Source of the DNA: Vairimorpha necatrix
Lineage: Eukaryota
Length of the DNA stretch: 64,000 nucleotides
Direction: 5' to 3'
NCBI GenBank assembly: GCA_036630325.1
Contig: CP142730.1
Location: 558,001-622,000, forward strand
The notes beneath the pieces were generated by a model. That model saw nothing but the letters and a program-made list of their open reading frames with translations. It was not told where the DNA came from and did no database searches. A program made the translations under genes and the position numbers. Shown here in pieces: positions 755 to 60,337 of this stretch (position 1 is the stretch's first letter; every line of letters starts with the position of its first letter).

Positions 755-1511
755 TTTTTTTTGCAAGTAAGTGTTAAAAATCTTATTGGCCTAGATGAAT
801 CGGATGTGATCCTTTTCCAATTTTACTGTTAAATTATTACTTACTTAAACTCCCCCATATTACATGCCGATGCAGCAATCTCCGCCTTGCCCATTGAACT
901 TGGCTCCAAAAGTCATTTTTTATTTATGCCTTTAATCGCGTTTAAGTGACCTCACGGCTGATATACTTAACAGGCATGGTTTTTTTAGCCCGAGGAGTGA
1001 CATCATTATGCTAACTCAAAGGTCTCAAAGAACATCTGTTAAGCACACAAGGGGTGTACAATCATTACATAACCAGCCAGGTATTTTCATTAGCTGTCAA
1101 CCTTAGTTCCTACCACTAGATTCATCCGCCAGATCACATACCCTGTAGAACAAGGTCCAAAAGGACTTCTGTTGCTTACTTCGTCTTGTCTTTGTTTAGC
1201 TTTAATATAACACTCTAGAGTGCTCCTGCCATGGGCTTCAATGAGGCCATATCCATCAGACACTTTCATGTATTATAAAGCCACTTTTAGAGGTTAGTGC
1301 TTCTGGTATTAAGTGCTGTTCCTATACCAGACACCAATTCACTTATTCCTGGGCCCATACAGGTTTCATTGAATCAACTTAATGATTTTGTAGACATTTC
1401 ATCCTCTGAGTTGATCCACTGCACCATAGAAAGTAGAAAAAAATTTTGGTAGCCCTGACATTCGAACTTAGCATTGTATAATGATAGCGTCGCCTTCTAC
1501 ATCTAAGGCTA
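755..1511 (-). mobile_element. tRNA-headed SINE-like element, copy 1 (diverged)
   Basis: Colinear similarity to the 11295-12080 copy (e.g. CCCGAGGAG.GACATCAT, CACTCTAGAGTG, TTTCATTGAA, CATAGAAAGTAGAA). T-run at 755-762 is the A-tail on the minus strand. Degenerate B box (GTTCGAAT on minus) near 1460. Confidence 0.85.
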
Positions 1512-2042
1512 AAAACTATTTTGAAGTTTTTTGTTAATTGTGATTTTTATGAAGATTGATCGCCGCAATTTTCTTTCATAATGTTGTAATGGTAAAATCC
1601 AAAAACGAATAAATATTTAACTATTGCATTAGACCGAGCAAATGTTCTAATTTAAATTGGGGAAATTAATAAAAAAATTTCCTGTATTTATAACACCACA
1701 ATTTTTGCCATTCAAGATCAATGTTCATACTTTTAATACACATAGAAAAAAATCTTTTTGTTAGTGTATTGACACATTGGTCGCTTACACTTGCAGTTTA
1801 ATCATACCTCTCTAAATACACAATACTCTTTGGGCCCTCCGTATTTTTTCAATATATATGATTATTTTTATGCTTTAAATACCTTGTAACAAGTATACAA
1901 GCATTTTATTGGGCAATAACTAGATCTTTTCCAATAAATATATATATTATATAAAATAACTCAGTATATCTATCCTGTGAATAAAATATAGTTTAATTTA
2001 AAATACACATGAATTTTTAGCTTATCCCTCTATATTTGTATA

Positions 2043-2819
2043 GGTGCCCTTAGCTCAGTGTTGAAGGCGATGATTCTATTGAGCAACGGCTGGGTTCGAT
2101 TCCCGTGGCAATAAAATAGCTTCTACTTTCTATGACGCAGTTGGAACAACTCAGATGATGAAAATCTCCATGATAATCATTAAATTGATTCATTGAAACT
2201 TGTGTGTGTCCAGCCACAAAGGGATTAGCATATATTGTAGAACGCACCTAAAGGCCAAAAAAATAGTATCACCTCCTTGGTAATTTAATGATACATAAAA
2301 GTATCTAATGGGTACGGCCTAGTTGGAGCCCATGGCTGGTGCACTCTAGAGTGGGATCCTAGAGCTAACTAAGAAAAAAGACGAAGTTAAGAAACAGAAG
2401 TCCTTTTGGACCTTGTTCTACGGGGTATGTGATCCGGTGGACGAATCTAGTGGGAGAGACTAAGGTCGAAAGCCAATGAAAATACCTGGCTGGTTATGTT
2501 GTGATTGTACACCCCTTGAATGCAATATGGATGATTGTAGGGACCTTTGAGTCAGTACGATGATGTCTCTCCTCGGGTTATAGATAACCATGTCAATAAG
2601 GATATCTGCTGTGAGGTTATTTTGGACGCAATTTGAGGTATTAATAGACAATGTTCTTTAATATCCAAATTTCAATATTATACGATAGGGGTTCTGCGCT
2701 TAAAAGTAATTTAATAGGAGTTTAAGTGAGTAAGAATTTAAGTAGCAGTTGGATGAGGATTAACATTGAATCCCTTTAGTCCTTACGTAACTGATATTTT
2801 CAACTTTTATTATAAAAAA
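2043..2819 (+). mobile_element. tRNA-headed SINE-like element, copy 2
   Basis: Starts GGTGCCCTTAGCTCAGTG (A box) and has GGGTTCGATTCCC (B box/T arm). The body matches the other copies, with a deletion near 2690-2720, and the end is A-rich. Confidence 0.88.
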
Positions 2820-11207: not shown

Positions 11208-11294
11208 TGCTATAAAAAAGATATTTATTTTTATTTTTTAAATTACCAATAAAATTTTTTGCAAATTTATTTGTTTCATTTAAAACGTGTTTTT

Positions 11295-12080
11295 TTTTTC
11301 TTCAAAGTAAGAGGTAGAGAGAAACCTTACATAGGGACCAGAGGATTTGGGGTGTGATCCTCATTCAACTGGTATTGCGAGATTCTTACTCACTATAACT
11401 CCCTCCATACAACTTGCCGGTGCAGCAATTCTCCGCCGTATCCATTGGACTTTGTCTTCAGGAGAACACTTTCCATTTATACCTCAAATCGCGTCCAGAG
11501 TGACCTCGCAGCGGATATACTTAACGGGCATGGTTATCTATAACCCGAGGAGAGACATCATCGTACTGACTCAAAGGTCCCTACAATCATCTGTATTGCA
11601 CACACGGCTCCTTACACGACCACATCCCCAGCCCGTGCTTTTTATTGGGCTGCGTTGACCACCAGTCTCCCACTAGTTTAGGCCACCGTGTTACAGAATC
11701 ATGTAGGATAGGGTCCACGAGACCTCTATTGCCCCACTCCGTCTAGTCTCTTAGTTAGCTCCAGGAACCCACTCTAGAGTGCACCAGCCATGGGCTCCAA
11801 CTGGGCCGTGCCCATTAGATACTTTTATGTATCATTAAGTCACCAAAAGCGATACTGCTTTTTGGCTTTGAGGTGCGTTTCTACACTAGATGCTAATCCC
11901 CTTGTGGCTGGACACACACAAGTTTCATTGAATTAACTTAATGATTATCGTGGACATTTTCATCATCTGAGATGTTCCAACTGCATCATAGAAAGTAGAA
12001 AAAATTTTGGAGCCCCTGGGAATCGAACAAAGCCATTGCTCAATGGAAGCATAGCATTCTACCACTGTGCTAAGGGCACC
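11295..12080 (-). mobile_element. tRNA-headed SINE-like element, copy 3 (best preserved; poly(A) tail and 21 bp TSD)
   Basis: The minus strand begins GGTGCCCTTAGCACAGTGGTAGAA...GTTCGATTCCCAGGGGCTCCA and ends ...TTACTTTGAAG(A)n. It is flanked by TTTCATT(T/A)AAAACGTGTTTTT at 11274-11294 and 12081-12101 (one mismatch). Confidence 0.92.
12008..12080 (-). promoter_or_regulatory. tRNA-like head with internal Pol III A and B boxes (not a functional tRNA)
   Basis: 73 nt. Acceptor-like stem GGTGCCC/GGGC(T/A)CC-A, A box TAGCACAGTGG, B box GTTCGATTC. Anticodon-like stem TGCT-TCCATTG-AGCA has a non-canonical loop. Confidence 0.8.
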
Positions 12081-12414
12081 TTTCATTAAAAACGTGTTTT
12101 TCAAGTTAACGTTGCTTACATTTTTTTAGTTTATCTGCATATGTTCAACATAAATTTTAAACTTTATAATGGACATTGTTACTAAACTTAAAATAGTATA
12201 AAAAGTATTATTTGTTCTTCTATAGATTTATTCTATATTATAGTTATATATATATAATATGTGTATTACAAGTATTAATTCTTTTTTTTAGATAAAAAAA
12301 TTAATATCTAAGGAATTCGGAATTTTTATTAGGCAAATCACCTACAAGATATCTTTTTAATTATTAAAAAATATACTTTACCTATAAGGAAAAATAAAGT
12401 AAAATTCAATTTTT

Positions 12415-14333: not shown

Positions 14334-14648
14334 TTTATGTTTTGAGGGTACCAAACAATAACAATTAACAACGTATATTTAATTAAGGCTACAAGTGAAA
14401 ATTATGAGATTTATATAATTTAAATGCATTTAGCCATGTATAAGATTAAAGATGTTGCATATGGGGTTTACTAATTAAAATTTAAGTATAAATAACGTTA
14501 ACTTAAACTGCAGATAAATTTAACTATAAAATTGATATAAAAGAAGGAAGTAAACATTTAAAATAAAATTTAATCTTTATGTCTAAAATTTATATTTAAC
14601 AAATCAAATTTTCATTATATTGAAAATTAAGATTAATCTTAAAAGTAA

Positions 14649-16208
14649 TCATATATATAAAAGAATTTTATTTAATTTTTTACCCCTCTTTTTGGGATTG
14701 AAGAATTTTTACACCATATATTTTTTGCTTTTTATGATATTTGAATATTAAATACAAATTTATTGCTTTAATTTGACTATTCTAAGTGTGTATGTTATTA
14801 GTTAATACTTTTTAATTTTGATTATTATTTAAGTGAAACTCGGTTTCAAAATATCATCAGAATCGTTTTTTAGAATTTATTTAACCCTTCTAGAAAAAAT
14901 TCACAAAAACAATAAACAAAAAAAATTGAATATAAGTGTCAAAAATTGAGCTTAGAATTCCATAAAATTATTTCAATGAGACTCATAAGTGTTTTTAACT
15001 TAACTTTACTCCTTCTATGTCACTAAAAAGTATTTTTAAAAATCATATCTTCACCCTGTCAAATTCAATCATCCCAAAATGGAAACTTAACAAAATTAAA
15101 GGAGGAAATACATACTAAAAAACTAAACATATAATTCCCGTTTTCAAAACGGGAAAGCATACGCTAGTCATATATATAAAAGAATTTTATTTAATTTTTT
15201 ACCCCTCTTTTTTATGGTTTTTTAAAATTTAAACTTCTTATTATAGCTTATTGTGTTTTTGTAATATCAAATATAAACTCAATGAAGGATTTTGACTATC
15301 ATATATGCGTGTACTGTATGTTAATACATTTTGATTTTAATTCTTTGTTTTGTAAAACTCAGTTCCAAATATCGTCAGATTCTTTTTTAGAATTTATTTA
15401 ACCCTTCCAAGAAAAATTGCAAAAATAATTAACAATAAAGATTTTGAATATAAGTGTCAAAAACTGAGCTTTAAGAGTTTTGAACATATCTCATTGAGAT
15501 TCATAAGTGTTTTTAACTCAACTTTACTCCTTCTATGTCACTAAAAAGTATTTTTAATAAACAAACATGTCTTCACCCTGTCAAATTCAATCATCCCAAA
15601 ATGGAAACTTAACGAAATTTACCGATCAGGGACATATTATAAAACTTAACATTTAGATCCCGTTTTCAAAACGGGAAAGCATACGCTAGTCATATATATA
15701 AAAGAATTTTATTTAATTTTTTACCCCTATTTTTTGTGATTTTGTAAAATCTAAACTTCTTATTATAGCTTATTGTGTAATTATGATATCAAATATAAAC
15801 TCAATGAAGGATCTTGACTATTCTAAGTGTGTATGTTATTAATTAATACATTTTTATTATGATTATTACTTTTGTAAAACTCAGTTCCAAAATATCGTTA
15901 GAATCGTTTTTTAGAATTTATTTAACCCTTCTAGAAAAAATTCACAAAAATATTAATCAAAGAAAAAGTTGAAAAAAGTGTCAAAAATTGAGCTTAGAAA
16001 TTCCCAGAATTATTTCAATGAGACTCATAAGTGTTTTTAACTCAACTTTACTCCTTATATGCTACTAAAAAGTATTTCTAATAAACATGTCTTCACCCTT
16101 TCAAATTTAATCATCCCAAAATGGAAACTTACCAAAACTTACCGAGGCGGGACATACAAAAAATAAAACATTTAAATCCCGTTTTCAAAACGGGAAAGCA
16201 TACGCTAG
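14649..16208 (+). mobile_element. Tandem array of three non-autonomous Helitron units (14649-15167, 15168-15689, 15690-16208)
   Basis: Each unit starts with 5'-TC and ends with hairpin CCCGTTTT-C-AAAACGGG, ~10 nt, then CTAG-3'. The array sits between A (14648) and T (16209) with no TSD, and the internal junctions are exact CTAG|TC. Confidence 0.9.
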
Positions 16209-16235
16209 TATTTTATATTTAATTTATCTTCTTAT

Positions 16236-16787
16236 TTATTTAATATTTTTAGTTTCATAAACTTCTAGAATTCTTATTGGTTTCTCTTTCATTTTCTTCT
16301 TCTGACATTTCAATATTTTCAACTGTTTTTCATTAATAGCTTCCCCTTTCTTGCACACAACATAATCATCTTCTAATATTGTTATATTCTTCTCAGTAAT
16401 TGTAGGCAATAAATCTGCCAGTTCTTTATTAGTTATTTTTCCTTTATTAATTATAAAATCTTCATCAGATATGTCATTTATATCATAATATGTTTCAAAT
16501 TTATATTTTTTAATATTTTCTATGCCCGAAGTATTAGTAAAAACTAAAAAGAAGTTTTTATCAAGTACGTCTTTATTAAAAAAATTGTATTTTTTACACA
16601 ACATCTTTTTCTTTACAAAGAGTATACTTGTATTTTCTAATTCTGTTCTCATTTTGTTCATTAATGATGCACTTATGTCTGTGTTTTCTACTACACAAAT
16701 GTATTCATGGTCTTTTATAAGAGAAGTAAATTTGTCAACAGTTTCGAGTTTTTTCTCTTTTAATTTTTTTTGGATTTTCCCACGCAT
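16236..16787 (-). CDS. MRT4: Ribosome assembly factor Mrt4-like (uL10/P0 paralog)
   Basis: L10-like N-terminus (YICVVEN...MNKMRTEL) and C-terminal DYVVCKKGEAINEKQLKIL, typical of Mrt4/P0. No acidic P0 tail. Confidence 0.75.
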   Translation of the reverse strand: MRGKIQKKLKEKKLETVDKFTSLIKDHEYICVVENTDISASLMNKMRTELENTSILFVKKKMLCKKYNFFNKDVLDKNFFLVFTNTSGIENIKKYKFETYYDINDISDEDFIINKGKITNKELADLLPTITEKNITILEDDYVVCKKGEAINEKQLKILKCQKKKMKEKPIRILEVYETKNIK

Positions 16788-32102: not shown

Positions 32103-32569
32103 TTTATGGGCAAAAAAATTATTCCTTAAATATTTTTAATTTTTTATGCGATTTTTTCTCCTTAAATATTTTTAAAAAATAGTTTGTTGGTTTAAACCAA
32201 CAAACTGATAAATTTAACTCTAAAGTAAAAAAGAATGTCTTGCCGTAGGATATTTTCATATTTAATAATAAAAAAAGACCTTTATTATAAGGTGAGTCAG
32301 TGACAAATGACATTTTTAAAGTCATTTATTTAATGTATTTACAAAATGAAAAGTTTTCTTTGCTTTATTAGTAATTCCATCAAGTTTTAAATCATCAATA
32401 CCAATAAATGTTTTATTCGTGCTACAATATCTACTTCATTAATTTTTTTATAATATTTCTGGCAATAAAGTGTTATTTGTGCTGTTATTACATTTCTTAT
32501 AGATTTTTGCATGTAATTAATCATCTTTTAGAAATGTCTTCTTCGTTTTCTTTATAAAATTCCCCTCCA

Positions 32570-33250
32570 ATGGAACAACATTTTATTTTGAGACTCAAAG
32601 ATGAACTTAAAGATATTATTGATTTAAAAGAATCAACTCTAGAAAGTTTAGACCATGAAATGGTACAACTAGTTTATAAAAACAAGAAATATCCCGGTAT
32701 TATTGTTAAACTACCATGTATTATGGAGTCCCAGAAGACACTGGACAAGAAACAATTTTATAAAATTTCAGATATTTCAAGAATGGTTGTAATATTCCCT
32801 CATAATGATTTTGATTTTGAAAAAGAGAGAAAAATGTACGAAATGAGTGGATTGTCCGCTCCCTTGAAATATTGCAAAGTGCGCCGGTTTAGGAAAAAAT
32901 TTACTGGTAAAATTCATTTACTCAATGAAATCGAACAGAAAGTCAATGAATTATTAGAAAAAGATAAAAGAGCGAAGAAAGTTGTAATAGAAGGAGAAGA
33001 AACTAATACAGCAGATGAAGACATTTTAGGCATAGTAGCAGAAATAGAAAATAATTTAGAAGATACAAATTTCGAAGCCAAACAAGAACAGACAAATGTA
33101 ATATTAGAGACACCAGAAATTATTCAGTTAAAAAGAGAAATTGAACAACAAAAATCTCTGGTTGATAATGCCCTGAATCCCATTTTACAACAAAGATTTA
33201 AAGCAAAATTAGACATTTTACTGGATAAATTAGAAAACATGTATAAATAA
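32570..33250 (+). CDS. TAF7: TFIID subunit TAF7
   Basis: MEQHFILRL, IVKLPCIMESQKTLDKKQFYKISDISRM and SGLSAPLK..K.RRFRK match the TAFII55 N domain. The C terminus is coiled-coil. Confidence 0.93.
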   Translation: MEQHFILRLKDELKDIIDLKESTLESLDHEMVQLVYKNKKYPGIIVKLPCIMESQKTLDKKQFYKISDISRMVVIFPHNDFDFEKERKMYEMSGLSAPLKYCKVRRFRKKFTGKIHLLNEIEQKVNELLEKDKRAKKVVIEGEETNTADEDILGIVAEIENNLEDTNFEAKQEQTNVILETPEIIQLKREIEQQKSLVDNALNPILQQRFKAKLDILLDKLENMYK

Positions 33251-33845
33251 ATAAAGAATTAAATTAAATAAATCTTTATATTTAATCTATTAATAAACAC
33301 AATATAGTCTTTTTCTTGATACCTTTAAATTTGGCTTTTATTTATTTTTCCAATATTATAATAGAATTTATGTTTAACATGACTGGACTGCGTCATTATT
33401 ACACTTTTAGTTTAAAATTAATTAAGAAGCCTCTAGTTAGTTAAATATATTTTCTGTATAACTGTATGTGCTAAGAATAAATTAAATGTTTGATATTAAT
33501 AGTGCCTGTTTATATAATATCAAATTTATGGCTTCATATTTATTCTTACTGAAAAAGATATAGATCAAGAATATACGCCGAGTAACGTAGTTACGGGACA
33601 TTAATATCTTCAAATAACAAAGCTATAATTTCTTATTAAATAACATCAGCTTAATTAAGGAATTATGACTTGTAGATTTATAGTTTTTAAGTAATCCTAT
33701 TATTTTAAATATCTCTGTACTACAATCATATAGAAATACATCGTAATTTTGTGGCCATAAACACGCAAAATATGAATAAAAAAGATTTAAACACATTTTC
33801 TGTACTTATTTCTAAGCTTTGGTGAAATCTTAATATTGGAAAGAT

Positions 33846-34270
33846 ATCATTAAGTTGATTCAATGAAACTTGTGTGCGTTAAACACAATTTGATTATAGT
33901 TTGGAATAGCATCTTAAGTCCTCAATAATATAGCTTAGGATCTACATTAATGTATGTTTATACTAAATAAAGATACAAGGCCATTGGCTTTTAGACTTGC
34001 ACAAGATTGTGTAAGTAAAGTTAAGAGACTAGACGAAGTAGAGCTGTGTGGTTTCAAGTGTCATTTTTTAAGTATTCTTATATGCTAATCTCTTATAACA
34101 GGCCTAGACCTATAGAACGAAAGACCTACAATATGTATGTAATGGGGCACGATCTATATTCAAGAAATAATGTCATGTTTCCGATTAGTACGATGATGTC
34201 TCTCCTCGGGTAATTTCCACCTAGTGAACTTTATATCTGCTATGAAATATTCTCGAAGCAAAGTGAGCAT
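33846..34270 (+). mobile_element. Highly diverged, headless relative of the SINE-like element (copy 4)
   Basis: Three motif islands occur in the same order as in the other copies: ATCATTAAGTTGATTCAATGAAACTTGTGTG (from 33846), AAGAGACTAGACGAAGTAG (34023-34041) and AGTACGATGATGTCTCTCCTCGGGT (34187-34211). The sequence between them is diverged and the boundaries are uncertain. Confidence 0.8.
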
Positions 34271-34954
34271 AAAGCTAATGTATAGCACAATCACTTTCTG
34301 TATGTTTATTTAAGTGTGTTATGATTTGAATTCACAATATAACGAGTATAGCGCACTTAAAACATATAAAATTATGATGTGAGTTATTTCTTTACTATAC
34401 CTTATAAGAAATAATTTACATTGCCGAAATCTGTTTTCCTAAGTATAAAAGCTACCAACACTAGCAGCAGCCCACTAAAAAAGACTAATTTTCATAGTAA
34501 ACAGTTTTTAGTTTAAAAATTATCAGGCTACAATACTGACAATATTTCACAATGCTTTTATTGCGCCTGTGGTTGTTCTAAGCCATTTTGTCAAATTTTG
34601 TATATTCTTTCACTGAGACTTGCGATAAAACAGGAGATCGGAAAATCAAAACATTAAGAAGAATTCTTATGAATTTACTTTTAAGTTCTGCTAATATTAT
34701 CGTTTATTCTTACGGATATAATTTATGTATATTAAAATTTATCTACTTACATCTTTTTTTTGGTTTCTTTGGGACATCAATGCTCAATATTTTTTTTTAA
34801 GTAAATCTTATTTTTTTATGCGAAATATGCTAAATCATTTTTTTTATGACGTTTAAATATGTTAGATTTTTTAATATAAAATAAAATTGATAAATTTTAG
34901 TAATTTATAACTAAATAAAGTTTATTTATTTCTATAAAATTTGTTTATTTTAAA

Positions 34955-35635
34955 TTATTCGATATTTTTAAATATCTTATGTTTGTTATTATACTTATAA
35001 TCTACTAGGACATCTTGTATATCATTCCATATTTCATAAAAATCTGATATTTTAAAAATTGTTTCTTTTTCATTTTCAAACATGAATCTTTTTCTTTTTT
35101 GTTCTTCCAAAACATTATTCAAATTTATATCAATTTTCTCTACCTTTTTTTTCAAAAAAATTATTTCGCAATTTTTTATAAATTTTTTCATTTCTTCGTC
35201 TTTTTCAATTTTGTCATTTACATAATTAATTTTTATTTTTGGTTTATAATCAAGATCATTCAAATTATTACGAGCTATTCCTGTAAAATTTTGATCATTT
35301 GGTAGAATTCTTAAACAATGTAATAAAGATTTATTATTTCCAATGTCATTTAAATTTTTTTTTAAAGTATTTTGAGCTTTTAAAAAAGAAATCAGTTCTT
35401 TTTCTTGTAAAGAATTTTCAGAAAAAAAACTTTCTATTAGAAATTTCGTGGTTGGTTCAGAAAATATTTCTGAACCAATAGATTTATTGAGTTTTAATGA
35501 TATTTGTATTATGTAATATTTAAGTACATCAGAAATGAGATTTAGACTCTGTTCTGATATTCTATCAAATCCAATTTGTAAACAAATCTCTGAGACGCAA
35601 AGTTTTAATATGTGGAAGTTTAGATTTGACTTCAT
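34955..35635 (-). CDS. Bromodomain-associated (Bromo_TP) histone-fold protein, TAF3/TAF8-like
   Basis: ILKLCVSEICLQIGFDRISEQSLNLISDVLKYYI is the typical histone-fold start of TAF3/TAF8. Start placed at ATG 35635 (MKSNL), downstream of a CCC motif. Confidence 0.7.
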   Translation of the reverse strand: MKSNLNFHILKLCVSEICLQIGFDRISEQSLNLISDVLKYYIIQISLKLNKSIGSEIFSEPTTKFLIESFFSENSLQEKELISFLKAQNTLKKNLNDIGNNKSLLHCLRILPNDQNFTGIARNNLNDLDYKPKIKINYVNDKIEKDEEMKKFIKNCEIIFLKKKVEKIDINLNNVLEEQKRKRFMFENEKETIFKISDFYEIWNDIQDVLVDYKYNNKHKIFKNIE

Positions 35636-36116
35636 GATTTTTAATAATAGGGATAAAAAATAAGAAATTCCGAAAAAAGTAAACAAATTTGAAATCAAGT
35701 GTGAAACTTAAAGAGAAGTAATAAATAAAGCAAATCATTGTGTTTACATTACATCACATGGGCATAAAATTGATTGTACTCAATTTTAATGTTGGAAAAA
35801 TATAATTTGCGAACAAAATCGTTGTTTACAAATGATTTATTGTCACAATTTATTTAAAAAAGGATGTCTTCTAAGATTGCTGATACTTGTGTTGAAAGAT
35901 TTTCATTTGTCTAACAGAAATTTATAAAACTTTTGATTGATTTTTTGATTTTATTTTCAAGGGGTGCAATTTTTGACATCTATTAAAAATGAATATCAAT
36001 TGCAGAAATGCAACACTTAAATGGCCTGAAATACGCAAATTAAGTTATTATAATGCAATGTATTTGTTTTCTGGCAATAGAATAAAAAATATTTTTATAA
36101 AATTTTTCTTTATTAT

Positions 36117-38762: not shown

Positions 38763-41170
38763 AATGTACCAAGGTTGTAATTATGAAAAAATTCTGAAAA
38801 TACAAAACAAATTAAAAAAAAATTTTGGCAATAAAAAAAATTAAATAAGTTATTTATTTTGTAGGAATGCCAAAATATAACTTATTAAAGATCCTAAAGT
38901 CTGAATTAAAATTCTCATAAGTGTTTACAGACTCATAAAAATGATTATAACGAGCCACGGGTTTATATTTTTTTTGCTATACCGTAGAGTAGGTACAAGA
39001 CATTTTTATATTAAATGCTACTAAAAAATTCATATTTCTATGTTAATTTAAATATATATAGGGTAAAAAAGCAATATTTGTTATTTAATTGTCAATCGAA
39101 GAAAGAAACAATTTATTGTTGTTGTGAATAAATAAAATGTATTTCCATCTTTCCATCTAAAAAGCATATACATGAAGTAATAACTATAATTATTGTATGC
39201 TCTTATTATAATCTTGAGTTTTATTGACATTTATTGTCTCTTAATAATGTTATTCTATATTTTTTCTTTTATTTAAAAAATAGTATAAAATTAGACGCAA
39301 ATACTCTCATTTTACGTATATCTTGCATTAGTAGATATATTTTTGTATAATTTCATATAAAACGTTAAATTGAAATTTCTTATGTAGGACAAATTATCTC
39401 GGCAGTATTAATTTATGTCAACTCTTCCAGGGCTACAAATTCATAACCATACATTTAATATACAAGCAGAATATATTCTAGCCGAGATACAAATAGCGCA
39501 AGAACATTTCCCATAAAGTCATAGTGAGAATCTTTTGTTTCTTTGGTAGGTATATGTAATTTGTATATCATGAAAGTAACAAAAGATTTTTTGTGTTACC
39601 ATTGCACCATAAATGAAAAAAATGTGCACTATAACCTAAATTTTTTAATCAACAGTATATTAATTCTGAGACTATCAATAGAGTTTAGGTCAGGACAACA
39701 AGTAGTTTTTATATTTGTGTCGTGCTAGAACAAATCACGCCTTAAAAGTTTTCAAACACAGAATAAGTAGTTCAGTTAGAAATTGTCATATTAGCTCTGA
39801 AGACACAGCATCAGCACATTTCACTGCCTTTTTGCTCGATACATAACCAGCCTGTGTATTTATAATGCTTTATCACATGTTGAAATTAAGTATCAGCTAT
39901 TTTAATACCTCAAGAGCATAATAACCCAAGATCTTGATTAAAGTGAAATTTAATTATAATTGCTCGGATTACTTCTCGTAAAAGTGCTTTAATGTATTTG
40001 AAATGGATCCGTTTTTTTTTGTACATTGAATAATTCTTATGCAATATTATTTTAATTTTTAATAGGTCACTTTGTTACAAGGCAGTGCTCCTGTCCGTTG
40101 AACTAGTGTCTTTTTATACGTATAAAGAGTATAAAATTTTTTTATAGACATTTTTTCATTTTTGATGACTTAATTATAGAAACTAAAAATATTTTATTAA
40201 TAATGAATCTGGTTTTGTGTGTGAACACACTCCCCCATGCACCAAATACAGATTTAATGCAAAAAATCAGCTCGCATGTTTTTACTTAGACTAAGATTGT
40301 TATAGATCATGATATATTTATGCAGTTTATATATTTTTTGCTTTTATTTTGCAAATAATATTTGTTGACAATAGCATAAATCATGTTGAAAGACTTTCTA
40401 ATAAGCTTTTAATTCTAAAACGCAAACCTAAAGCCAATCAAACTTTACAGAGTAACATAACATTTTAGCTACATTTATAGAATGGTTGAGTCCGATAAAA
40501 TTTGACATTCTGCATTGTAAGACTTGTATGAGATAAAATATGCACTCCAAACAAGCCAAATGATTTTCTAAGATTGCGCAATAATGCTAAATTTTTTTTA
40601 AAAAAATATACGAGGAATACAATATTGTACAAACGAGCTTATTGAGAAATTAATTTAATTTCGTGATATATATATATATAGAATAAAAAAAAAGGTTTAT
40701 TCATTATAATATCAAAAATACGAATATTAGCAAGAGAAAGGAAGAAATTTTATTTTACTCATCTGAAAAAGTTTAAAAAAATGAATAATTTTTTTTTTAT
40801 TTGTTAGAGACCTCTTTATACATCTAGAATAAAAAAATAAATATCTCGACTTGAAGAAAAAATATCAAATGTTTAAATAAATCAACACGGTAATTTTAAC
40901 GAATTTAAGCATTAACTCTTAATAACAAGCCGTCTAAGAAGCATAACTCAATTTATAAAAAATAACATGTAGGAAACAGTTGTATATTTCATTTTTTATC
41001 TAGAACTTTTGTATCCGACAATTATAAGTCAGGCTCCTGTAAAAAAACGAATCTCAGTATAAAATTATTGCTCAGATCTTCAGATTTTTATAATTAACTA
41101 TATTTTTAGTCTCAATATAATTAGATAAATTTTCTGGATATTTTTATTGGTGTTTTATGCAAATATAAAA

Positions 41171-41949
41171 GGATTCGCCCAGTAGTCGAAGGCGATGCTT
41201 CCATTGAGCATTAACTAAGTTCGAATCATAGGGCACCAAAATTGTTTCTACTTTCTATGATGCAGATGGAACAACTCAGATGATGAAAATGTCCACGATA
41301 ATCATTTAGTTAGTTCAATGAAACTTGTGTGTGTTCAGCCACAAGGGGATTAGCATCTAGTGTAGAAACGCACCTCAAAGCCAAAAAGCAGTATCGCCCT
41401 TTGATGACTTAATGATACATAAAAGTATCTGATTGATACGGTCTATGTGGAACACATAGTAGATGCACTTTAGAGTGAAATCCTAGAGCTAACTAAGAGA
41501 CTAGACGAAGTAGGGCAATAGAAGGTCTCGTGGAGCCTATCCTACAAGATTCTGTAACACAGCGGACGAGACTAGTGGGAGATTGGTGGCCAACACAGCC
41601 CTTCAAAAATGCCAGGGCAGGTGATGTGTCGATGCTGAGGCTGCGTGCGATACAAATGATTATATAAAGCTTAATTTAGAAGATGATGTATCTCTTCGAG
41701 TTTTAGATAACCATGCTCGTCCGTATATCCGCCGTGAGGTCATTCTGGGCGCGATTTGAGATTAAATGGAAAGTGTTTTCATTGAGCCAAAGTCCTTTGG
41801 TTACGACGGAGCTTGCTGCGCTGGCAAGTTATTTGGATGTAGTTTTAGTGAGTAACAATCCCAATGTACCAGTTGGATAAGGATCTTACATAGATCCTCT
41901 GGTCCCTATGTAAGGTTTCTTTCCACATCTTACTTGGAACGAAAAAAAT
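41171..41949 (+). mobile_element. tRNA-headed SINE-like element, copy 5 (11 bp TSD)
   Basis: Head contains GCTTCCATTGAGC, GTTCGAATC and GGGCACCA; the body is full length and the end is A-rich. TGCAAATATAA flanks both sides (41158-41168 and 41950-41960). Confidence 0.9.
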
Positions 41950-48813: not shown

Positions 48814-49591
48814 TTTTTTTTTTTTGCAAATAAGAGGCAAGGAGAAACCTTACATAGAGACCAAAAAACTTTAAGTGTGATCCTTATCCAACTGGTACTA
48901 TGAGATTTAAACTCACTAAAACTCCCTCCATATAACTTACCGGTGCAGCAAGCTACGACGTAACCATTGGACTTTGGCTCCAGGAGAACACTTTCCATTT
49001 ATACCTCAGATCGCGTCCAGAGTGACCTCATGACGGATATACTTAACGGACATGGTTATCTATGATCCTAGGAGAAACATCATCGTACTAACTCAAAGAT
49101 CCCTACAATCATCTGTATTGCACACGGTTCCTTACATCGCCACATCACCAACCCGGAATTTTTATCGGGCTGCGGGTACTACCAGTTTCACACTAAATTT
49201 GGGCACTGTGTTACAATCTTGTAGGATAATGACCATGAAACCTTCAATTGCCTCGCCTCGTCTAGTCTCTTAGTTAGCTCTGGGGTCCCACTCTAAATGC
49301 ACCAGCCCTGGGCTCTAACTAGGCCGTATCCATCAGATACTTCATTTTCAATAATTAAACAAAGGAGGAGACTGTTTTCTGACTTATGGTGCATTTCTAA
49401 ACCAAATACTAATTTTTTATGTCTTAACACACACAATACATTTCCACAAGTTTATGATTTTTCTGAACACTTCTCATTCCGAATTGTTCCAACTGCATCT
49501 TAAAAAGTAAAAGCGTTTTTGAGTCCCCGGGATTCATACCCAGATATGCTCAATGCTGGTTTCTTTATTTGGCCTCTAGGCCAAGAGCACA
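48814..49591 (-). mobile_element. tRNA-headed SINE-like element, copy 6 (head degenerate)
   Basis: T12 run at 48814-48825 is the poly(A) tail. The body is colinear with copy 3 (GAAACCTTACATAG, GGAGAACACTTTCCATTTATACCTC, GTCTAGTCTCTTAGTTAGCTC). Confidence 0.88.
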
Positions 49592-51181: not shown

Positions 51182-51486
51182 TGTGGTATTATAAATACCA
51201 CAAATTATTTATTTTTATTTTATCAATTTTCCCTTTTTGGAAAATAGACCATTCGACCGGTCTATTCCAAAAATCAAATATTTATTTCCTTTTTGCCCTG
51301 ACCCACACACAAAATTATGAGACAAGACAAAGATCAATACCCTTGGAATCCACGACCAAGGAAGGGCCTCAGAGCCAGGGACCAGTATCCCATTACGGAT
51401 GCCCGACGAGGCTTTAATCAATCAAATAAAACGTATAATTTAATAGAACTATATTTGTCCAGAGGTAGCTCCTCTGGATTGCGTCA
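51182..51486 (+). repeat. 5' LTR
   Basis: TGTGGTATT...GCGTCA, near-identical to 55093-55395. Confidence 0.95.
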
Positions 51487-54400
51487 TTTTGAATTCAAAG
51501 ACGAATTAAATAGTAATTACGAAGATAGAAATTCCATGTTCGAATACAGAGAATTCGACATGAAGATCACTGGAACAGATGTGATAAGTAAAGAAAAAAT
51601 AAAAATTATTAAAAAACCATCAGAAATTTCAATGTTGGAGCTACAGAAATTTGAGAATCTAGCAGAGGCCAATGGCTGGAATGATGAGCAGATGGGAAGA
51701 ATATATGGGACCATGTTAGTTGGCGATCACTTTTTAAACGCCAAGTATAGTGAATCATACTTAAAATTAAGAGCGGCATCACTAGAAATTGCCTATCCTA
51801 GAAACATGAGATTTAGAATTGCACAGGAGCTCGAAGATGTTAGGCAGTGCAACCACATATATCTGGAAGATTATGTGAAGAATATTTCCCAAAAGTTAGA
51901 TGCCTACAGTTTCTCAAATAATTTAACTAAGCAAGAAGCTGAGAGAAAATTTTCAGAAGTATTTTTTAGAGGACTAGGTAAACAAACTGAGATGGAACTT
52001 TGCAAAAATGAGGTTAATACGCGGACCACTTCAGACGTTATTGCTTATCTAAAGACTTTAGAATCAACTATTATTTCTCAAATAGGAAGACGAAACGAGA
52101 ATGGATATGTACCTAATGAAACAAGCAAAATTTGCAAATCAAGAAATCCTTATTGTAGTGTGCACAAGAGCTTTTCGCACAATACAAGAGATTGTAGACT
52201 TCGGAACAATCTCAAAGATACTAAAGATAAAACGATACATTTTGAAGAAAAAACAAAAAGAAATAATATGGTTATTCAGCTAGGAACAACAAGTAATCAG
52301 AAAGAAGTAAAAATAATAGGAATATTAGACTCAAATAATTACTTATTGTTAATCGATACAGGTTCACACTTGAATTTTGTGAGTGAACAAGTGGTCAACA
52401 TGAATGATCATATAGCTGAACCGTGTCAGCCCTTCACTACTATATTTGGAAATGGAGATGAAAGAATGATTAACACTAAAGCTAGAATACGAATAAGGTT
52501 GTCTCCAAATATTATCATGGATATTGAATTCTATATTATTAAAAATTGCCCAGTCGATTTACTACTAGGATCTGAATGGCTAAGGAAGAATAAAGCTACA
52601 ATTGATTTTGCTAACCAATCACTTGTTATCAACAATGAAGAAATTCCCTTTATGGACGCGATACCAAACACGGATGAGATGTTAAATGAACGATTTAACA
52701 ATTTACTTTATGTGTCTCCTTCGAAGGAAATTTATATTTCACACCTTGAAAATTATAAGAAACTAAATGATAAATTTTACTCTATGAAAATGGATGAAGC
52801 TCGATTTACGGTTATAAAGAAGTTGAATATCACGCGACATAAATTCTACAATATAGCTTTCAAATATTATGAAAGAGCAAGAAAGGAGGTTAAAAGATTA
52901 CTTGATGAAGATATTATAGAGAAGTCTAGAGCAACTTTCGCAAGCCCAGGATATTTCATCGAAAAGAAAACTGGTGAATTAAGACTGGTCATAAATTTTA
53001 AAGAGATAAATGATCACATCGAAGATGACATTTTTTCAATACCAAAAATAGATGACTGTATACTAAGGATGGGAAGAAATAAGTACTTTTCTCAAATAGA
53101 TTTAAAGAACGGATTCAACCAGATTAAAATCCAGCAAGAAAGCAGAGACTTGACATCATTTATGATTATGGGAGCCCAATACCGATACAAACGTATACCC
53201 TTTGGCATTAAACCGGGTCCAAAAATTTTCCAAAGATACATCACTGAAATATTACACGAAGTGGATAACTGCTTCGTGTACATAGATGATATTGTATTAT
53301 TCTCAGAAACCAAGGAAGAACACAACAAATTAATAGTAAATGTTTTGAACAAACTCAAAGAGAAAAATGTAAAAATAAACTTTGAAAAAAGTAACTTTAT
53401 GAAAGATGAAATCACGGTACTAGGAAATACAATAAATGCTGATGGTGTGTTTCCAGCGAACAAATTGATTCCTAAAGAAATATTAGAGAGAAGACTAAAA
53501 ACTAAAAGAGATGTCCAAAAACTATTAGGGACGATTGGATGGTATAGAAAATTCCTACCAAATTTGTCTACAAAATTACTCCCATTGACAAACATGCTGC
53601 AGCAAGGAGCAAAAATAGAATCGACTCAGCATGTTAAGAACATTATTAAGGACATAAGCGAATTTATTAAAAATAGAGCGAGATTAATCTGCCCAGATTA
53701 CACAAAGTCATTCACCTTAGAATGTGATGCTTCTGATATGGGGATAGGTAGTGTACTTTACCAAGAGGATGGTCCAATTGGATATTTTAGTAAAAAATTT
53801 GGAAAGGTTGAACTAAATTATAGTATTGTAGAAAAGGAATATCTTGGAATCCTTTTATCACTCATACACTTTAAAGGCATCTTGCAAGGAAATTTTGTAG
53901 AAGTCAGAACAGACAGTAAAAATTGCTTAAACAACGTGAAACTAGAAACCTCAAGAATGTGTCGTTGGAAGTTAATCATTAATGAATTTAACCATAAATT
54001 AATACACATAGAAGGTAAAGAAAATGTAATTGCAGATAGTTTATCGAGATGCTTCACAATTATCAAAAACAATGAAGATGGATACATAAAAATGGTCAAA
54101 GATGCAATGATAAAGGACAAAAATCAAAGGATAAAAATGAATAAAGACGGAAAAATTTTTATGAAACCAAACAAAGTAAAACACTGGTTATATAAAATAC
54201 ATCATGAACAAGGCCATAGAGGAATAACAACAATGTACAATAATCTAAAGAATTTTTTTTATGTTCCACATCTATTCCATAGGATCAAACAAATAGTAAA
54301 TGATTGTCGAAAATGCAAAGCTTACAAAGTAACTTATGTCAAAAGAGGGGTAGGAGCCCATATGTCAGCCGAAAACAATCTTGAAAGAATTAGCTCGGAC

Positions 54401-55081
54401 ATATATGGTCCATTTAATTTAGAGAAATTTAAGGACGCGGGTAAGCATAATAAAGGATTTATTATTACAGTAACAGACATAAAGACACGATACACGAAAC
54501 TATATTTAGCATATAAAATAAGAGGAGAAGAGATTATAAGCGCAATCAGCAATTGGACTGAATTAACAAAATCTAAACCTACAATACTAATATCAGATAA
54601 CGGAAAGCAGTATACAAGCAAACAAGTTGAACAATATTTAAACGAAGTGGACATAAAGCACTTACGCGTTCCAACATATACCCCAAGTTCAAATGGTATA
54701 TCAGAGTCAGTAAACCGCACTATAACATTCATACTGTCTATAATGAAAGGCGAAAATATAATCACAGCCATTGATATGTGCGAATGGGTGATCAATAATA
54801 ATTATAATAGATCAATAGGTTGTTCCCCCAATGCTGCGTTAAATGGGAAAGAATACTATGATCCACTAGAAAGAGCAATACAAATGCGTAATATAAAAAA
54901 AACATTAACTACTCCCAAATTCAGGCTAGGCGACGAAGTATATGTAAGGAATTTGACAGCTACGAAATTAGACCGGAAGTACTTAAGAAAGAGAAAGGTA
55001 ACGCAATTAGGATCCAAAGGAAAATGGGTAAAGGTGAATGGAATCTCTGAGTGGATACATGTCAAGAACATAAAACTTTAG
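51317..55081 (+). CDS. Single-ORF Gag-Pol polyprotein (PR-RT-RH-IN)
   Basis: Zn knuckle CSVHKSFSHNTRDC, protease LIDTGS, RT IPFGIK...YIDD, RNase H CDAS, integrase HHCC and D,D,E (SDI/SDNG/SESVN). The true start may be downstream of the LTR. Confidence 0.96.
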   Translation: MRQDKDQYPWNPRPRKGLRARDQYPITDARRGFNQSNKTYNLIELYLSRGSSSGLRHFEFKDELNSNYEDRNSMFEYREFDMKITGTDVISKEKIKIIKKPSEISMLELQKFENLAEANGWNDEQMGRIYGTMLVGDHFLNAKYSESYLKLRAASLEIAYPRNMRFRIAQELEDVRQCNHIYLEDYVKNISQKLDAYSFSNNLTKQEAERKFSEVFFRGLGKQTEMELCKNEVNTRTTSDVIAYLKTLESTIISQIGRRNENGYVPNETSKICKSRNPYCSVHKSFSHNTRDCRLRNNLKDTKDKTIHFEEKTKRNNMVIQLGTTSNQKEVKIIGILDSNNYLLLIDTGSHLNFVSEQVVNMNDHIAEPCQPFTTIFGNGDERMINTKARIRIRLSPNIIMDIEFYIIKNCPVDLLLGSEWLRKNKATIDFANQSLVINNEEIPFMDAIPNTDEMLNERFNNLLYVSPSKEIYISHLENYKKLNDKFYSMKMDEARFTVIKKLNITRHKFYNIAFKYYERARKEVKRLLDEDIIEKSRATFASPGYFIEKKTGELRLVINFKEINDHIEDDIFSIPKIDDCILRMGRNKYFSQIDLKNGFNQIKIQQESRDLTSFMIMGAQYRYKRIPFGIKPGPKIFQRYITEILHEVDNCFVYIDDIVLFSETKEEHNKLIVNVLNKLKEKNVKINFEKSNFMKDEITVLGNTINADGVFPANKLIPKEILERRLKTKRDVQKLLGTIGWYRKFLPNLSTKLLPLTNMLQQGAKIESTQHVKNIIKDISEFIKNRARLICPDYTKSFTLECDASDMGIGSVLYQEDGPIGYFSKKFGKVELNYSIVEKEYLGILLSLIHFKGILQGNFVEVRTDSKNCLNNVKLETSRMCRWKLIINEFNHKLIHIEGKENVIADSLSRCFTIIKNNEDGYIKMVKDAMIKDKNQRIKMNKDGKIFMKPNKVKHWLYKIHHEQGHRGITTMYNNLKNFFYVPHLFHRIKQIVNDCRKCKAYKVTYVKRGVGAHMSAENNLERISSDIYGPFNLEKFKDAGKHNKGFIITVTDIKTRYTKLYLAYKIRGEEIISAISNWTELTKSKPTILISDNGKQYTSKQVEQYLNEVDIKHLRVPTYTPSSNGISESVNRTITFILSIMKGENIITAIDMCEWVINNNYNRSIGCSPNAALNGKEYYDPLERAIQMRNIKKTLTTPKFRLGDEVYVRNLTATKLDRKYLRKRKVTQLGSKGKWVKVNGISEWIHVKNIKL

Positions 55082-55092
55082 AGGAGGTAGAA

Positions 55093-55395
55093 TGTGGTAT
55101 TATAAATACCACAAATTATTTATTTTTATTTTATCAATTTTCCCTTTTTGGAAAATAGACCATTCGACCGGTCTATTCCAAAAATCAAATATTTATTTCC
55201 TTTTTGCCCTGACCCCAACAAAATTATGAGACAAGACAAAGATCAGTACCCTTGGAATCCACGACCAAGGAAGGGCCTCAGAGCCAGGGACCAGCATCCC
55301 ATTACGGATGCCCGACGAGGCTTTAATCAATCAAATAAAACGTATAATTTAATAGAACTATATTTGTCCAGAGGTAGCTCCTCTGGATTGCGTCA
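55093..55395 (+). repeat. 3' LTR
   Basis: Duplicate of the 5' LTR, preceded by the PPT. Confidence 0.95.
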
Positions 55396-55948
55396 TCGTC
55401 AAAAAATACCTTGCCTTTATTTTCTTGCCCCCCCTCAAAAATAATGTTAACTTTAAAAAAATTTTATATCTTTTTATTGATTTTTTTTTAGCGGGGGGGG
55501 GGGGGTGCAAGAAAATGAAGTAGCGCCAAAAATGCAAAGTTGGACTATAAAAATGCAAAGCTTATAATTTTGAGAAAGAATTATGCAATATATACACAGA
55601 TTAGAAACAAAAACATGAACTATGAAAACATCTACAAATCAAAATATAATTATACTGTCAATTGTGCCTAATATTATGATTATTTAGAACAATGTTCAAA
55701 ATTAGAAAGATATTATTTTCAGATACAATGTGTAATGAAAAAAATTAGAACCAAATAAAAAAAAGCATTAGGATTATACAAAAATCATGATTATTGGTAA
55801 CAATAAAAAAGTTTATTAGTACAAATAATAAAAAATATCAATGACAAGATAAAAAAATGAAACAACGTCTTATTTTAATATATCCGAAACAATCTATGTA
55901 GAATACTTTCTTAAAATCAAGAATGCTTATTAGAAATATAATAAAATT

Positions 55949-59936: not shown

Positions 59937-60337
59937 GATTTTTCTATTTTCATTTTAAATATTCATTGTATTTGATTCTAAATTCACTTTAAATAAGCGA
60001 AAAAATATTTATTAAAATTTTTTTTTTAATTCAAAAAGAAAAATCAACACGCCATCTGATAAATTAAAAAACCTCAATTAATTTTATAAAATATTCAGAA
60101 AAATCAAAAACAAAATAATATTTGACACGAGTACAATTAATTTTAAGATTAGGGAATGAATAATATATGGATGTATAGACGATTTATAAATAAAAAAGGT
60201 GATTTGTCTTTTTGATCATCTCCGAATAGAGAAAAAAAAAATCAAAATTCTATATTAAATTTCAGACATCATTTTAATTTATAAATGCGGAATAATTTAA
60301 TTAATTATTTCAAAATCAAAGAACATAAGGTAAATTA

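What the first reader, a model, noticed from the sequence alone, without database searches (positions are those of the whole stretch)
33846..34270. A deeply diverged copy keeps three near-invariant motif islands and rebuilds the stems with different sequence
Seen: most of this copy cannot be aligned, yet ATCATTAAGTTGATTCAATGAAACTTGTGTG, AAGAGACTAGACGAAGTAG and AGTACGATGATGTCTCTCCTCGGGT are essentially identical to the young copies. At equivalent positions, hairpins reappear with new sequence: TTGTGT/ACACAA (33870-33888), TCCT/AGGA, GTAT/ATAC, AAGGCC/GGCTTT (33977-33991), ACTTGCACA/TGTGTAAGT (33995-34016, replacing CACTCTAGAGTG) and GAGAC/GTTTC. Two islands are mutually complementary over 6 nt (AGAGAC/GTCTCT). 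Neutral decay would scatter mutations evenly. Inference: this is either a distant, separately active subfamily or a cellular or domesticated ncRNA related to the SINE body, and the islands mark the functional core.
Basis: partly seen in the sequence, partly recalled or inferred. Interest (0 to 1): 0.8.

Follow-up and report, generated by a model that had tools for sequence, protein, structure and literature searches.

The report
SINE relic with three perfect islands
Between two transcription-factor genes of a microsporidian-like parasite lies a headless, tailless remnant of a jumping-gene (SINE) body that keeps three short stretches letter-perfect while the rest has drifted away, which points to some pressure on those stretches, but the "rebuilt RNA stems" are no more than chance.

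Summary
The three islands are real: 33846-33876 (31 nt), 34021-34041 (about 21 nt) and 34184-34211 (about 28 nt). They are collinear with five roughly 780-nt A-tailed SINE copies in the window, two of which have clear target-site duplications. The islands match the copies' majority sequence exactly, while the whole stretch is only 46% identical. Runs like these appeared in 0 of 20000 permutations.

A profile search shows homology only to SINE positions 142-357 and 519-612. There is no box A/B head, no tail and no second copy in the window.

The "rebuilt stems" are not supported:
- Hairpin counts and folding energy match shuffled sequence.
- Only 27 of 66 family-predicted pairs are kept, which is the control level.
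- The 6-nt complementarity between islands occurs by chance in 10-26% of trials.

The active copies are mosaics. A hypervariable module lies exactly where this copy is unalignable, and the islands sit in stretches shared between the subfamilies.

A related strain (coded run X2) has contigs of the same variant, 5-9% diverged. Island 3 is unchanged there, while 14 of the 60 flanking letters differ.

Best reading (0.38): an old relic of a distant lineage of this modular SINE family, with sequence-level constraint on the islands. It is not an active subfamily and not a demonstrably structured RNA. A neutral copy of a distant lineage (0.30) is not excluded.

The parts
33846..33876 (+). Island 1, 31 nt. 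It equals the five-copy majority sequence exactly and is the first position of detectable homology (SINE model position 142).
   Evidence: Contigs of a SINE variant in runs X1 and X2 match from 33843 (table 7).
33877..34020 (+). Segment between islands 1 and 2. It keeps weak but significant homology to the SINE body and is AT-shifted.
   Evidence: z 4.76, 0 of 500 shuffles; z 2.6-5.0 against each of the 5 copies; 40 GC>AT against 17 AT>GC changes.
34021..34044 (+). Island 2, with a 19-nt exact core at 34023-34041. It is of the type seen in copies c11, c41 and c49 (subfamily B).
34045..34183 (+). Middle segment with no detectable homology. It corresponds to the module that is hypervariable between the SINE subfamilies.
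   Evidence: z 0.35; z -1.0 to 1.8 against 5 copies; gap between the two profile hits; 47 of 54 subfamily-diagnostic body columns fall here.
34184..34211 (+). Island 3, with a 25-nt exact core at 34187-34211 and a 27-nt exact run against the majority sequence.
   Evidence: Unchanged in the X2 contig over 34112-34380, which shows no difference between 34183 and 34217.
34212..34273 (+). Last homologous segment (to SINE model position 612). It contains a minor semi-conserved block around 34232-34245.
   Evidence: second profile hit, 34185-34273; z 2.68, 4 of 500 shuffles.
11292..12084 (-). Reference SINE copy c11 (subfamily B). It has box A/B-like motifs, an A-run and a target-site duplication of about 17 nt.
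41162..41948 (+). SINE copy c41 (subfamily B), with an 11-nt target-site duplication.
48815..49585 (-). SINE copy c49 (subfamily B).
2037..2818 (+). SINE copy c2 (subfamily A middle module).
755..1513 (-). SINE copy c1 (subfamily A middle module, the most decayed copy).
32558..33250 (+). TAF7 gene. It converges on the relic from the left.
   Evidence: TAFII55_N, E 4.6e-23..
34955..35707 (-). Histone-fold Bromo_TP_like (TAF3/TAF8-like) gene. It converges on the relic from the right.
   Evidence: PF17027, E 8.3e-37.

Best explanation
33846-34273 is an old remnant of the body of a distant lineage of the window's modular SINE family. It has no Pol III head and no LINE-type tail, so it cannot transcribe or copy itself.

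Its three letter-perfect islands are the segments shared by all lineages of the family; they flank the exchangeable middle module. At this apparently single-copy locus, shared with a related strain, the islands are held by constraint on the sequence itself, not on RNA stems.

Inferred and untested: the constraint acts because the islands must stay identical to the active SINE transcripts. They would be recognised by base pairing, or by a factor that also reads SINE RNA. Their lengths of 19-31 nt are in the size range of small-RNA guides, and the two convergent flanking genes could supply both strands by read-through.

Shown: the homology, its limits, the non-neutral pattern and the absence of head and tail. 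Inferred: the age, the selection at this locus and the mode of action.
For: - The profile of the five copies hits only 33846-34044 (model 142-357, E 1e-12) and 34185-34273 (model 519-612, E 3e-7). Nothing matches model positions 1-141 or 613-795.
- There are no box A/B-like motifs between the two genes and no A-run.
- Exact runs of 31, 27 and 18 at 46% identity were reached by 0 of 20000 permutations.
- The same islands carry 6 to 19 mismatches per 80 nt in the five ordinary copies, so they are not mutational cold spots. Conservation among those copies is even along the element.
- Inter-island GC is 30-34%, between the SINE's 44% and the flanks' 23-24%. Changes number 91 GC>AT against 43 AT>GC, as expected for long residence.
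- The whole-window profile search finds only the 5 full copies plus this stretch.
- Run X2 holds contigs of this variant: 33847-34141 with 16 differences and 8 gaps, and 34112-34380 with 22 differences and 5 gaps. Contigs on the flanking intergenic DNA are similarly diverged (15 of 159, 11 of 198), and gene contigs are nearly identical (1 of 157, 3 of 197). In the contig over island 3 there is no difference between 34183 and 34217, against 8 in 34145-34182 and 6 in 34218-34239.
- My estimate (inference): at 5-9% divergence, 2-4 changes would be expected in the 80 island letters since that split. P(0) is about 0.02-0.1.
Against: - No expression data bear on the stretch.
- There is no folding or covariation signal and no Rfam match.
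- Only island 3 could be compared in X2. The differences in the contig over islands 1 and 2 were not listed.
- No X2 contig bridges from the relic into unique flank, so orthology is probable, not proven. The contigs have word depth under 5.
- Loss of homology coincides with the modules that vary between active subfamilies. That fits descent from a different lineage and needs no selection at this locus.
- Zero tolerance over 31 nt is extreme for any known exapted element.
- RNAi genes could not be looked for, because no genome is held.
Confidence: 0.38

Rival explanations
1. This is a neutral copy, or a captured internal fragment, of a distant third lineage of the same modular SINE superfamily. 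The islands are that superfamily's conserved anchor segments, kept by selection in the source genes. They are still intact here only because the insertion is not very old. The AT-rich stretches between them are that lineage's own modules.
For: - The active copies are mosaics. c2 against c11 is 86% identical from island 1 to 2, 61% in the middle module, 98% around island 3 and 57% in the tail.
- 47 of 54 subfamily-diagnostic body columns lie in the segment where this stretch is unalignable. The islands carry 3 of 80.
- Residual homology is confined to modules shared by both subfamilies.
- Conserved body domains shared by otherwise divergent SINE families are a described phenomenon (abstract of PMC5804259).
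- P(0 island changes) since the X2 split is small but not negligible (about 0.02-0.1, my estimate).
Against: - A copy young enough to keep 80 of 80 island letters should still show a tail or A-run and a target-site duplication, as c11 and c41 do. None is seen. The best flanking direct repeat, 33794 and 34292, is 74% alike over 23 nt, and another copy of its core word lies at 33441-33458.
- There is no box A/B head within the intergenic DNA.
- There is no second copy in the window.
- The specific parts are in low-depth contigs, like unique DNA, in X2 (a hint only).
- Island 3 is unchanged in X2 amid heavily changed flanks.
Confidence: 0.3
2. This is an old SINE copy whose islands are kept identical to the abundant family by short-tract ectopic gene conversion, or by repair templated on SINE copies or cDNA, not by any function.
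For: - Many donors exist. There are five copies in 64 kb, and the bin holding island 1 sums to word depth 6769 in X1 and 168 in X2 from ordinary SINE contigs.
- The islands equal the family majority sequence exactly.
- Partial conversion of old SINE copies by younger ones is described for primate Alu (recalled, not read here).
- Conserved SINE domains have been proposed as recombination hotspots (abstract of PMC5804259).
Against: - The letters next to the islands are too diverged to support strand invasion.
- The tracts would have to be only 19-31 nt, three times over.
- The edges of islands 1 and 3 grade into 60-70% identity and are not sharp.
- There is no direct evidence for conversion.
Confidence: 0.1
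3. This is a host non-coding RNA gene or regulatory element that is the ancestor of the SINE body, not its descendant. The SINE keeps the motifs to mimic it.
For: - Homology covers only the body (model 142-612), never the head or tail.
- The locus looks single-copy.
- A T6 run at 34066-34071 follows island 2. Such runs are common in this AT-rich DNA.
Against: - There is no Rfam family on either strand.
- The fold is no more stable than shuffles.
- No promoter motif was found.
- The SINE is 44% GC and this stretch 33%, with 2:1 GC>AT changes. That is easier to read as decay of a SINE-derived piece.
Confidence: 0.08
4. The islands are chance similarity or an assembly or polishing artefact.
For: Island 1 is exactly 31 nt, a common assembler word length.
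Against: - 0 of 100 shuffles give any match for each island, and 0 of 20000 permutations reach the runs.
- Independent X2 contigs join islands 1-2 and island 3 to the variant's own specific sequence.
Confidence: 0.02

Closest known systems
SINE superfamilies with highly conserved body domains (CORE, V, Deu, Nin, Ceph, Meta). Source: Luchetti & Mantovani 2016, PMC5804259, abstract read; MetaSINE and mollusc papers seen only in the listing.
   Same: Short conserved body segments are shared by otherwise divergent SINE lineages with a modular head, body and tail. A link to recombination between lineages has been proposed.
   Different: Here there are three separate islands of 19-31 nt, not one domain of 50-200 nt. 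They sit in a headless, tailless single locus. The host is a microsporidian-like genome, while the described superfamilies are metazoan. Membership of any named domain could not be tested.
Exapted ancient SINE copies: the CORE-SINE-derived POMC enhancer nPE2 (PMC2000970, listing only), and AmnSINE1 and LF-SINE elements (recalled).
   Same: An old, immobile SINE remnant is kept at one locus, with parts evolving more slowly than their surroundings.
   Different: Those cases rest on conservation across many species and on enhancer assays. Here there is one partial comparison with one relative, and identity is to the active family consensus, not only between orthologues.
SINE middle bodies derived from LINE 5' parts (Kojima 2018, PMC5786205, abstract read).
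   Same: It offers a source for body-only homology outside a complete SINE. The relic could stem from a bipartite LINE derivative or the partner LINE.
   Different: No LINE is present in the window for comparison. No reverse-transcriptase remnant lies next to the stretch.
Partial gene conversion of old Alu copies by younger subfamilies (Kass, Batzer & Deininger 1995; recalled, not read).
   Same: The result is a mosaic of old background and family-consensus patches.
   Different: Alu donors and acceptors are 85-90% alike. Here the background is at or near the level of unrelated sequence.
Transposon-derived small-RNA source loci (piRNA-cluster-like or siRNA 'traps'; recalled).
   Same: An immobile transposon remnant keeps guide-length perfect matches to active elements and lies between convergent transcription units.
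   Different: No small-RNA or antisense evidence exists for this locus. The rest of the relic does not match the SINE, which is unlike typical cluster fragments.

Membership tests
The window's own SINE family (as an intact retroposed copy) | Pol III head with box A- and box B-like motifs about 43-44 nt apart | tested here: not met
   The motifs sit at the heads of c2, c11 and c41 but nowhere in 33251-34954. The profile finds no homology to model positions 1-141. The motif consensus was recalled. The Rfam tRNA model does not recognise even the intact heads, and ARAGORN finds 0 tRNAs.
The window's own SINE family (as an intact retroposed copy) | 3' tail ending in an A-run | tested here: not met
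   There is no homology to model positions 613-795 (z -0.03). No A-run lies downstream. c11, c41 and c49 end in A-runs.
The window's own SINE family (as an intact retroposed copy) | Target-site duplication | tested here: inconclusive
   c11 and c41 have duplications of 17 and 11 nt. Around this stretch the best flanking direct repeat (33794 and 34292) is 74% alike over 23 nt, and another copy of its core word lies at 33441-33458.
The window's own SINE family (as an intact retroposed copy) | Homology of the body | tested here: met
   nhmmer E 1e-12 and 3e-7 for model positions 142-357 and 519-612.
Separately active SINE subfamily | Several close copies of the variant | tested here: inconclusive
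   No second copy in 64 kb. In X2 the specific parts lie in 1-2 contigs of word depth 2.6-4.1, like the unique flanks (depth is not a copy number). No whole genome is held.
Named conserved-domain SINE superfamilies (CORE, V, Deu, Nin, Ceph, Meta) | Body matches the superfamily's consensus domain | not testable with these tools
   No SINE or repeat library is on hand. The island strings occur in none of the searched papers. Supplements are closed.
Exapted conserved non-coding element | Orthologous in relatives and slower-evolving than flanks | tested here: inconclusive
   One relative (X2). Island 3 shows 0 differences across 34183-34217, against 14 in the adjoining 60 nt. Islands 1 and 2 were not resolved, and no contig bridges to unique flank.
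Known structured RNA families (Rfam 15) | Covariance-model match at or near the gathering score | tested here: not met
   0 matches at gathering over the window. Only chance-level matches (E 3.4-9.3) in 33500-34600. Nothing at the locus in the whole-window E-value search.
Structured RNA sharing the SINE body's fold | Keeps the family's base pairs, with compensatory change | tested here: not met
   27 of 66 pairs are kept. Slid controls give 16-28, and 1089 of 5000 permutations do as well. The family alignment itself has a covariation term of +3.16.
Gene-conversion mosaic | Enough flanking homology for strand exchange around each patch | tested here: not met
   The segment between islands 2 and 3 and the upstream flank are at shuffle level.

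The most novel reading that the evidence does not exclude
The relic is a domesticated 'SINE trap'. Read-through from the two convergent genes makes double-stranded RNA over it. The three islands (19-31 nt, guide-sized, letter-perfect to the active SINE consensus and placed on the SINE's least changeable segments) are kept by selection because they yield small RNAs that silence the SINE family in trans. This would be a transposon-derived silencing locus in a microsporidian.
Probability: 0.1. Interest if true: 0.8.

Novelty: new variant of a known kind. Interest (0 to 1): 0.45.

Why it matters
SINE bodies often carry conserved segments whose role is unknown. Here a small, gene-dense parasite genome offers a natural dissection. 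One immobile relic has kept only three short segments of the body, and these lie in the stretches shared by the family's two subfamilies, on either side of the module that differs between them.

If the constraint is real, it pinpoints about 80 nucleotides that matter. They could matter for recombination between SINE lineages, for a factor that reads SINE RNA, or for silencing. All of these can be tested with comparative genomes and small-RNA data.

If the stretch proves to be a neutral copy of a third lineage, it still documents modular, mosaic SINE evolution in a Nosema/Vairimorpha-like microsporidian. My four literature searches found no description of SINEs in this group.

Tried and rejected
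- Whole genome: none is held, so copy number could not be counted.
- Expression: no RNA holder is listed for 32500-35800. X1's contigs cover the two genes but not the relic's specific parts or the other intergenic DNA. This is no evidence either way. X1 is labelled 'DNA?', although its very uneven, gene-only cover looks like cDNA (my inference).
- Public collections:
  - Island 3 as an exact 23-mer: 0 hits in metagenome, prokaryote-genome and viral contigs.
126 loci were held for the blastn. None was SINE-like for c11 or c33, and there was one 24-nt chance hit for c2.
- Protein database as a proxy for DNA: an antisense ORF across SINE copy c11 and the 62-codon frame spanning islands 2-3 found no candidates.
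- Earlier notes of this scan: nothing on this genome or sequence.
- Literature: the island strings appear in no paper. Four searches for SINEs in microsporidia, Nosema or Vairimorpha gave nothing specific, and a fifth was swamped by unrelated hits.
- The ESM Atlas search with PGK gave no taxonomic help.
- An R2-element-like match to the tail of c11 (E 0.12, below gathering) did not recur in the whole-window search, so it was dropped.
- A snoRNA reading of island 3 (snoR66, E 8.1, in c11 only) was rejected.
- RIP-like or editing hypermutation was rejected, because the changes include many transversions and indels.
- Complementarity of the islands to rRNA or snRNA was not tested.

Full report
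CONTEXT

The window is 28% GC and carries long intron-free reading frames. The stretch lies in a 1.7-kb gap between two convergent genes:
- TAF7 at 32558-33250 on the + strand (Pfam TAFII55_N, E 4.6e-23).
- A histone-fold Bromo_TP_like (TAF3/TAF8-like) gene at 34955-35707 on the - strand (E 8.3e-37).

TAF7's nearest named relative among 35 hits is Vairimorpha bombi at 68% identity. Encephalitozoon species are at 47-51%. The genome is therefore that of a Nosema/Vairimorpha-like microsporidian. No whole genome is held.

THE REPEAT FAMILY

A profile search finds five full copies of 760-790 nt: 755-1513(-), 2037-2818(+), 11292-12084(-), 41162-41948(+) and 48815-49585(-). They are 70-82% alike pairwise.
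- Box A- and box B-like motifs lie 43-44 nt apart at the 5' end of c2, c11 and c41. The motif consensus was recalled.
- The copies end in A-runs. c11 and c41 have target-site duplications of about 17 and 11 nt.
- They therefore behave as retroposed SINEs. However, ARAGORN and the Rfam tRNA model do not recognise the heads.
- Their majority sequence is 44% GC, far above the genome.

THE OBSERVATION

They recur only in these copies, with 0 matches expected by chance in shuffles. Order and spacing are kept: 177 against 193-194 nt, and 341 against 378 nt.

The profile of the five copies matches 33846-34044 (model 142-357, E 1e-12) and 34185-34273 (model 519-612, E 3e-7). It matches nothing else between the genes. 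The stretch therefore corresponds to the SINE body only. It has no head (1-141), no tail (613-795) and no detectable middle (358-518).

Against the majority of the five copies it is 46% identical over 499 columns, with exact runs of 31, 27 and 18, then 6 and 6. None of 20000 permutations reaches this.

The islands are not cold spots. The five ordinary copies carry 6 to 19 mismatches in the same 80 letters, and conservation among them is even along the element.

Homology outside the islands:
- Islands 1 to 2: weak homology remains (z 4.76, 0 of 500 shuffles; z 2.6-5.0 against each copy).
- After island 3: a little remains (z 2.68).
- Upstream, islands 2 to 3, and the far downstream part: at shuffle level.

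Inter-island GC is 30-34%, against 23-24% in the flanks. Changes run 91 GC>AT to 43 AT>GC.

STEMS AND COMPLEMENTARITY

- Hairpins: 19 stems of 5 bp or more against 23.2 in shuffles. The 9-bp stem at 33995-34016 is matched or beaten in 44% of shuffles and 49% of 150 genomic windows.
- Folding energy: z +0.24 on the + strand and +0.13 on the - strand. SINE copy c11 gives -1.45.
- Family consensus structure: its covariation term is unfavourable, at +3.16. The stretch forms 27 of its 66 pairs. Slid partners give 16-28, and 1089 of 5000 permutations do as well.
- Two of the 'new' stems reuse retained letters.
- The AGAGAC/GTCTCT match arises in 522 of 5000 shuffles, and in 1316 of 5000 for any island pair.
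- Island 2 to 3 pairing is predicted in only 1 of the 5 sequences computed (c49 was not computed). Copy c2 lacks AGAGAC yet keeps GTCTCT.

FAMILY ARCHITECTURE

The copies are mosaics.

| Region | c2 vs c11 | c2 vs c1 |
|---|---|---|
| Island 1 to 2 | 86% | 67% |
| Middle module | 61% | 86% |
| Around island 3 | 98% | 76% |
| Tail | 57% | 50% |

Of 54 columns in the body that separate c1 and c2 from c11, c41 and c49, 47 lie in the middle module. That is exactly where the stretch is unalignable. The islands hold 3 of 80. The islands therefore sit on the segments that all lineages share, on either side of an exchangeable module. The stretch has lost, or never had, just the parts that vary among active lineages.

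A RELATIVE

Only two runs hold parts of 32500-35800. X2 has low-depth contigs on:
- 33847-34141 (16 differences, 8 gaps).
- 34112-34380 (22 differences, 5 gaps).
- The intergenic flank at 34564-34920 (15 of 159 and 11 of 198).
- The genes (1 of 157 and 3 of 197).

This pattern, with genes nearly identical and intergenic DNA 5-9% apart, speaks for real divergence and not read error. The contig over island 3 has no difference from 34183 to 34217, but 8 in 34145-34182 and 6 in 34218-34239.

Three caveats apply:
- Differences over islands 1 and 2 were not listed.
- No contig bridges into unique flank.
- Depth is not a copy number.

READING

Chance and artefact are excluded for practical purposes.

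An active subfamily is unlikely, because the stretch has no head, no tail and no further copy.

What remains is a body-only relic of a distant lineage of this modular family. The open question is where the pressure on the islands acted.
- If the insertion predates the split from X2, I estimate 2-4 changes should have hit the 80 island letters (P of none about 0.02-0.1). A copy young enough to escape them should still show a tail and a target-site duplication, as c11 and c41 do.
- This tips me toward constraint at the locus (0.38) over a neutral copy of a third lineage (0.30).
- Gene conversion (0.10) lacks the flanking homology it needs.
- A host RNA gene ancestral to the body (0.08) has no structural or Rfam support.

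The constraint is on sequence, not on stems. Perfect identity to the active consensus over guide-sized lengths suggests recognition by base pairing with SINE RNA. That step is inference only.

COMPARISON WITH WHAT IS KNOWN

The nearest concept is the conserved body domains of SINE superfamilies, which have been proposed to act as recombination hotspots (abstract of PMC5804259). Also close are exapted SINE remnants (PMC2000970, listing only) and SINE bodies of LINE origin (abstract of PMC5786205). Membership of any named domain could not be tested, because no repeat library was available and supplements are closed.

Noticed in passing
window 755-1513, 2037-2818, 11292-12084, 41162-41948, 48815-49585: A SINE family of about 780 nt, at 44% GC in a 28% GC microsporidian-like genome. 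It has box A/B-like heads, A-runs and target-site duplications. Five copies lie in 64 kb. Four literature searches found no description of SINEs in this group. The high GC raises the question of recent arrival, for example from a host.
   Followed up: partly
window copies c1, c2 vs c11, c41, c49 (alignment columns 378-520 and 641-800): The copies are mosaics. The middle module and the tail come in two types that do not follow the rest of the element. c2 against c11 is 86%, 61%, 98% and 57% identical across successive segments. This suggests recombination or template switching between SINE lineages.
   Followed up: partly
window 33833-33973 bin, run X1: Contigs of ordinary SINE copies that share island 1 sum to word depth 6769 in X1. 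The neighbouring genes have 72-2218. X1 covers genes only and looks like cDNA. If it is, SINE-containing RNA is abundant.
   Followed up: no
window 51302-55396: A Ty3/gypsy-like element with an open 1259-codon frame and 179-nt terminal repeats that are 99% alike (51309-51487 and 55218-55396), so it is probably young. A broken second retroelement lies at about 56011-58795 on the - strand.
   Followed up: no
window 14598-16242 and 59140-61163: Two tandem arrays with long units of about 520 nt and about 1240 nt, whose copies are 72-95% alike. The first holds a short GC-rich hairpin (CCCGTTTTCAAAACGGG).
   Followed up: no
window 11310-11415 (-): The tail of SINE copy c11 gives a weak match to the R2 retrotransposon 3' element (19.8 bits against a gathering score of 38, E 0.12 in a 901-nt search). 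It was not seen again in the whole-window search.
   Followed up: partly
window 33575-33600: A GC-rich near-palindrome (GTAACGTAGTTAC core) in otherwise 23% GC intergenic DNA. An X2 contig departs from the window just downstream, at 33624.
   Followed up: no
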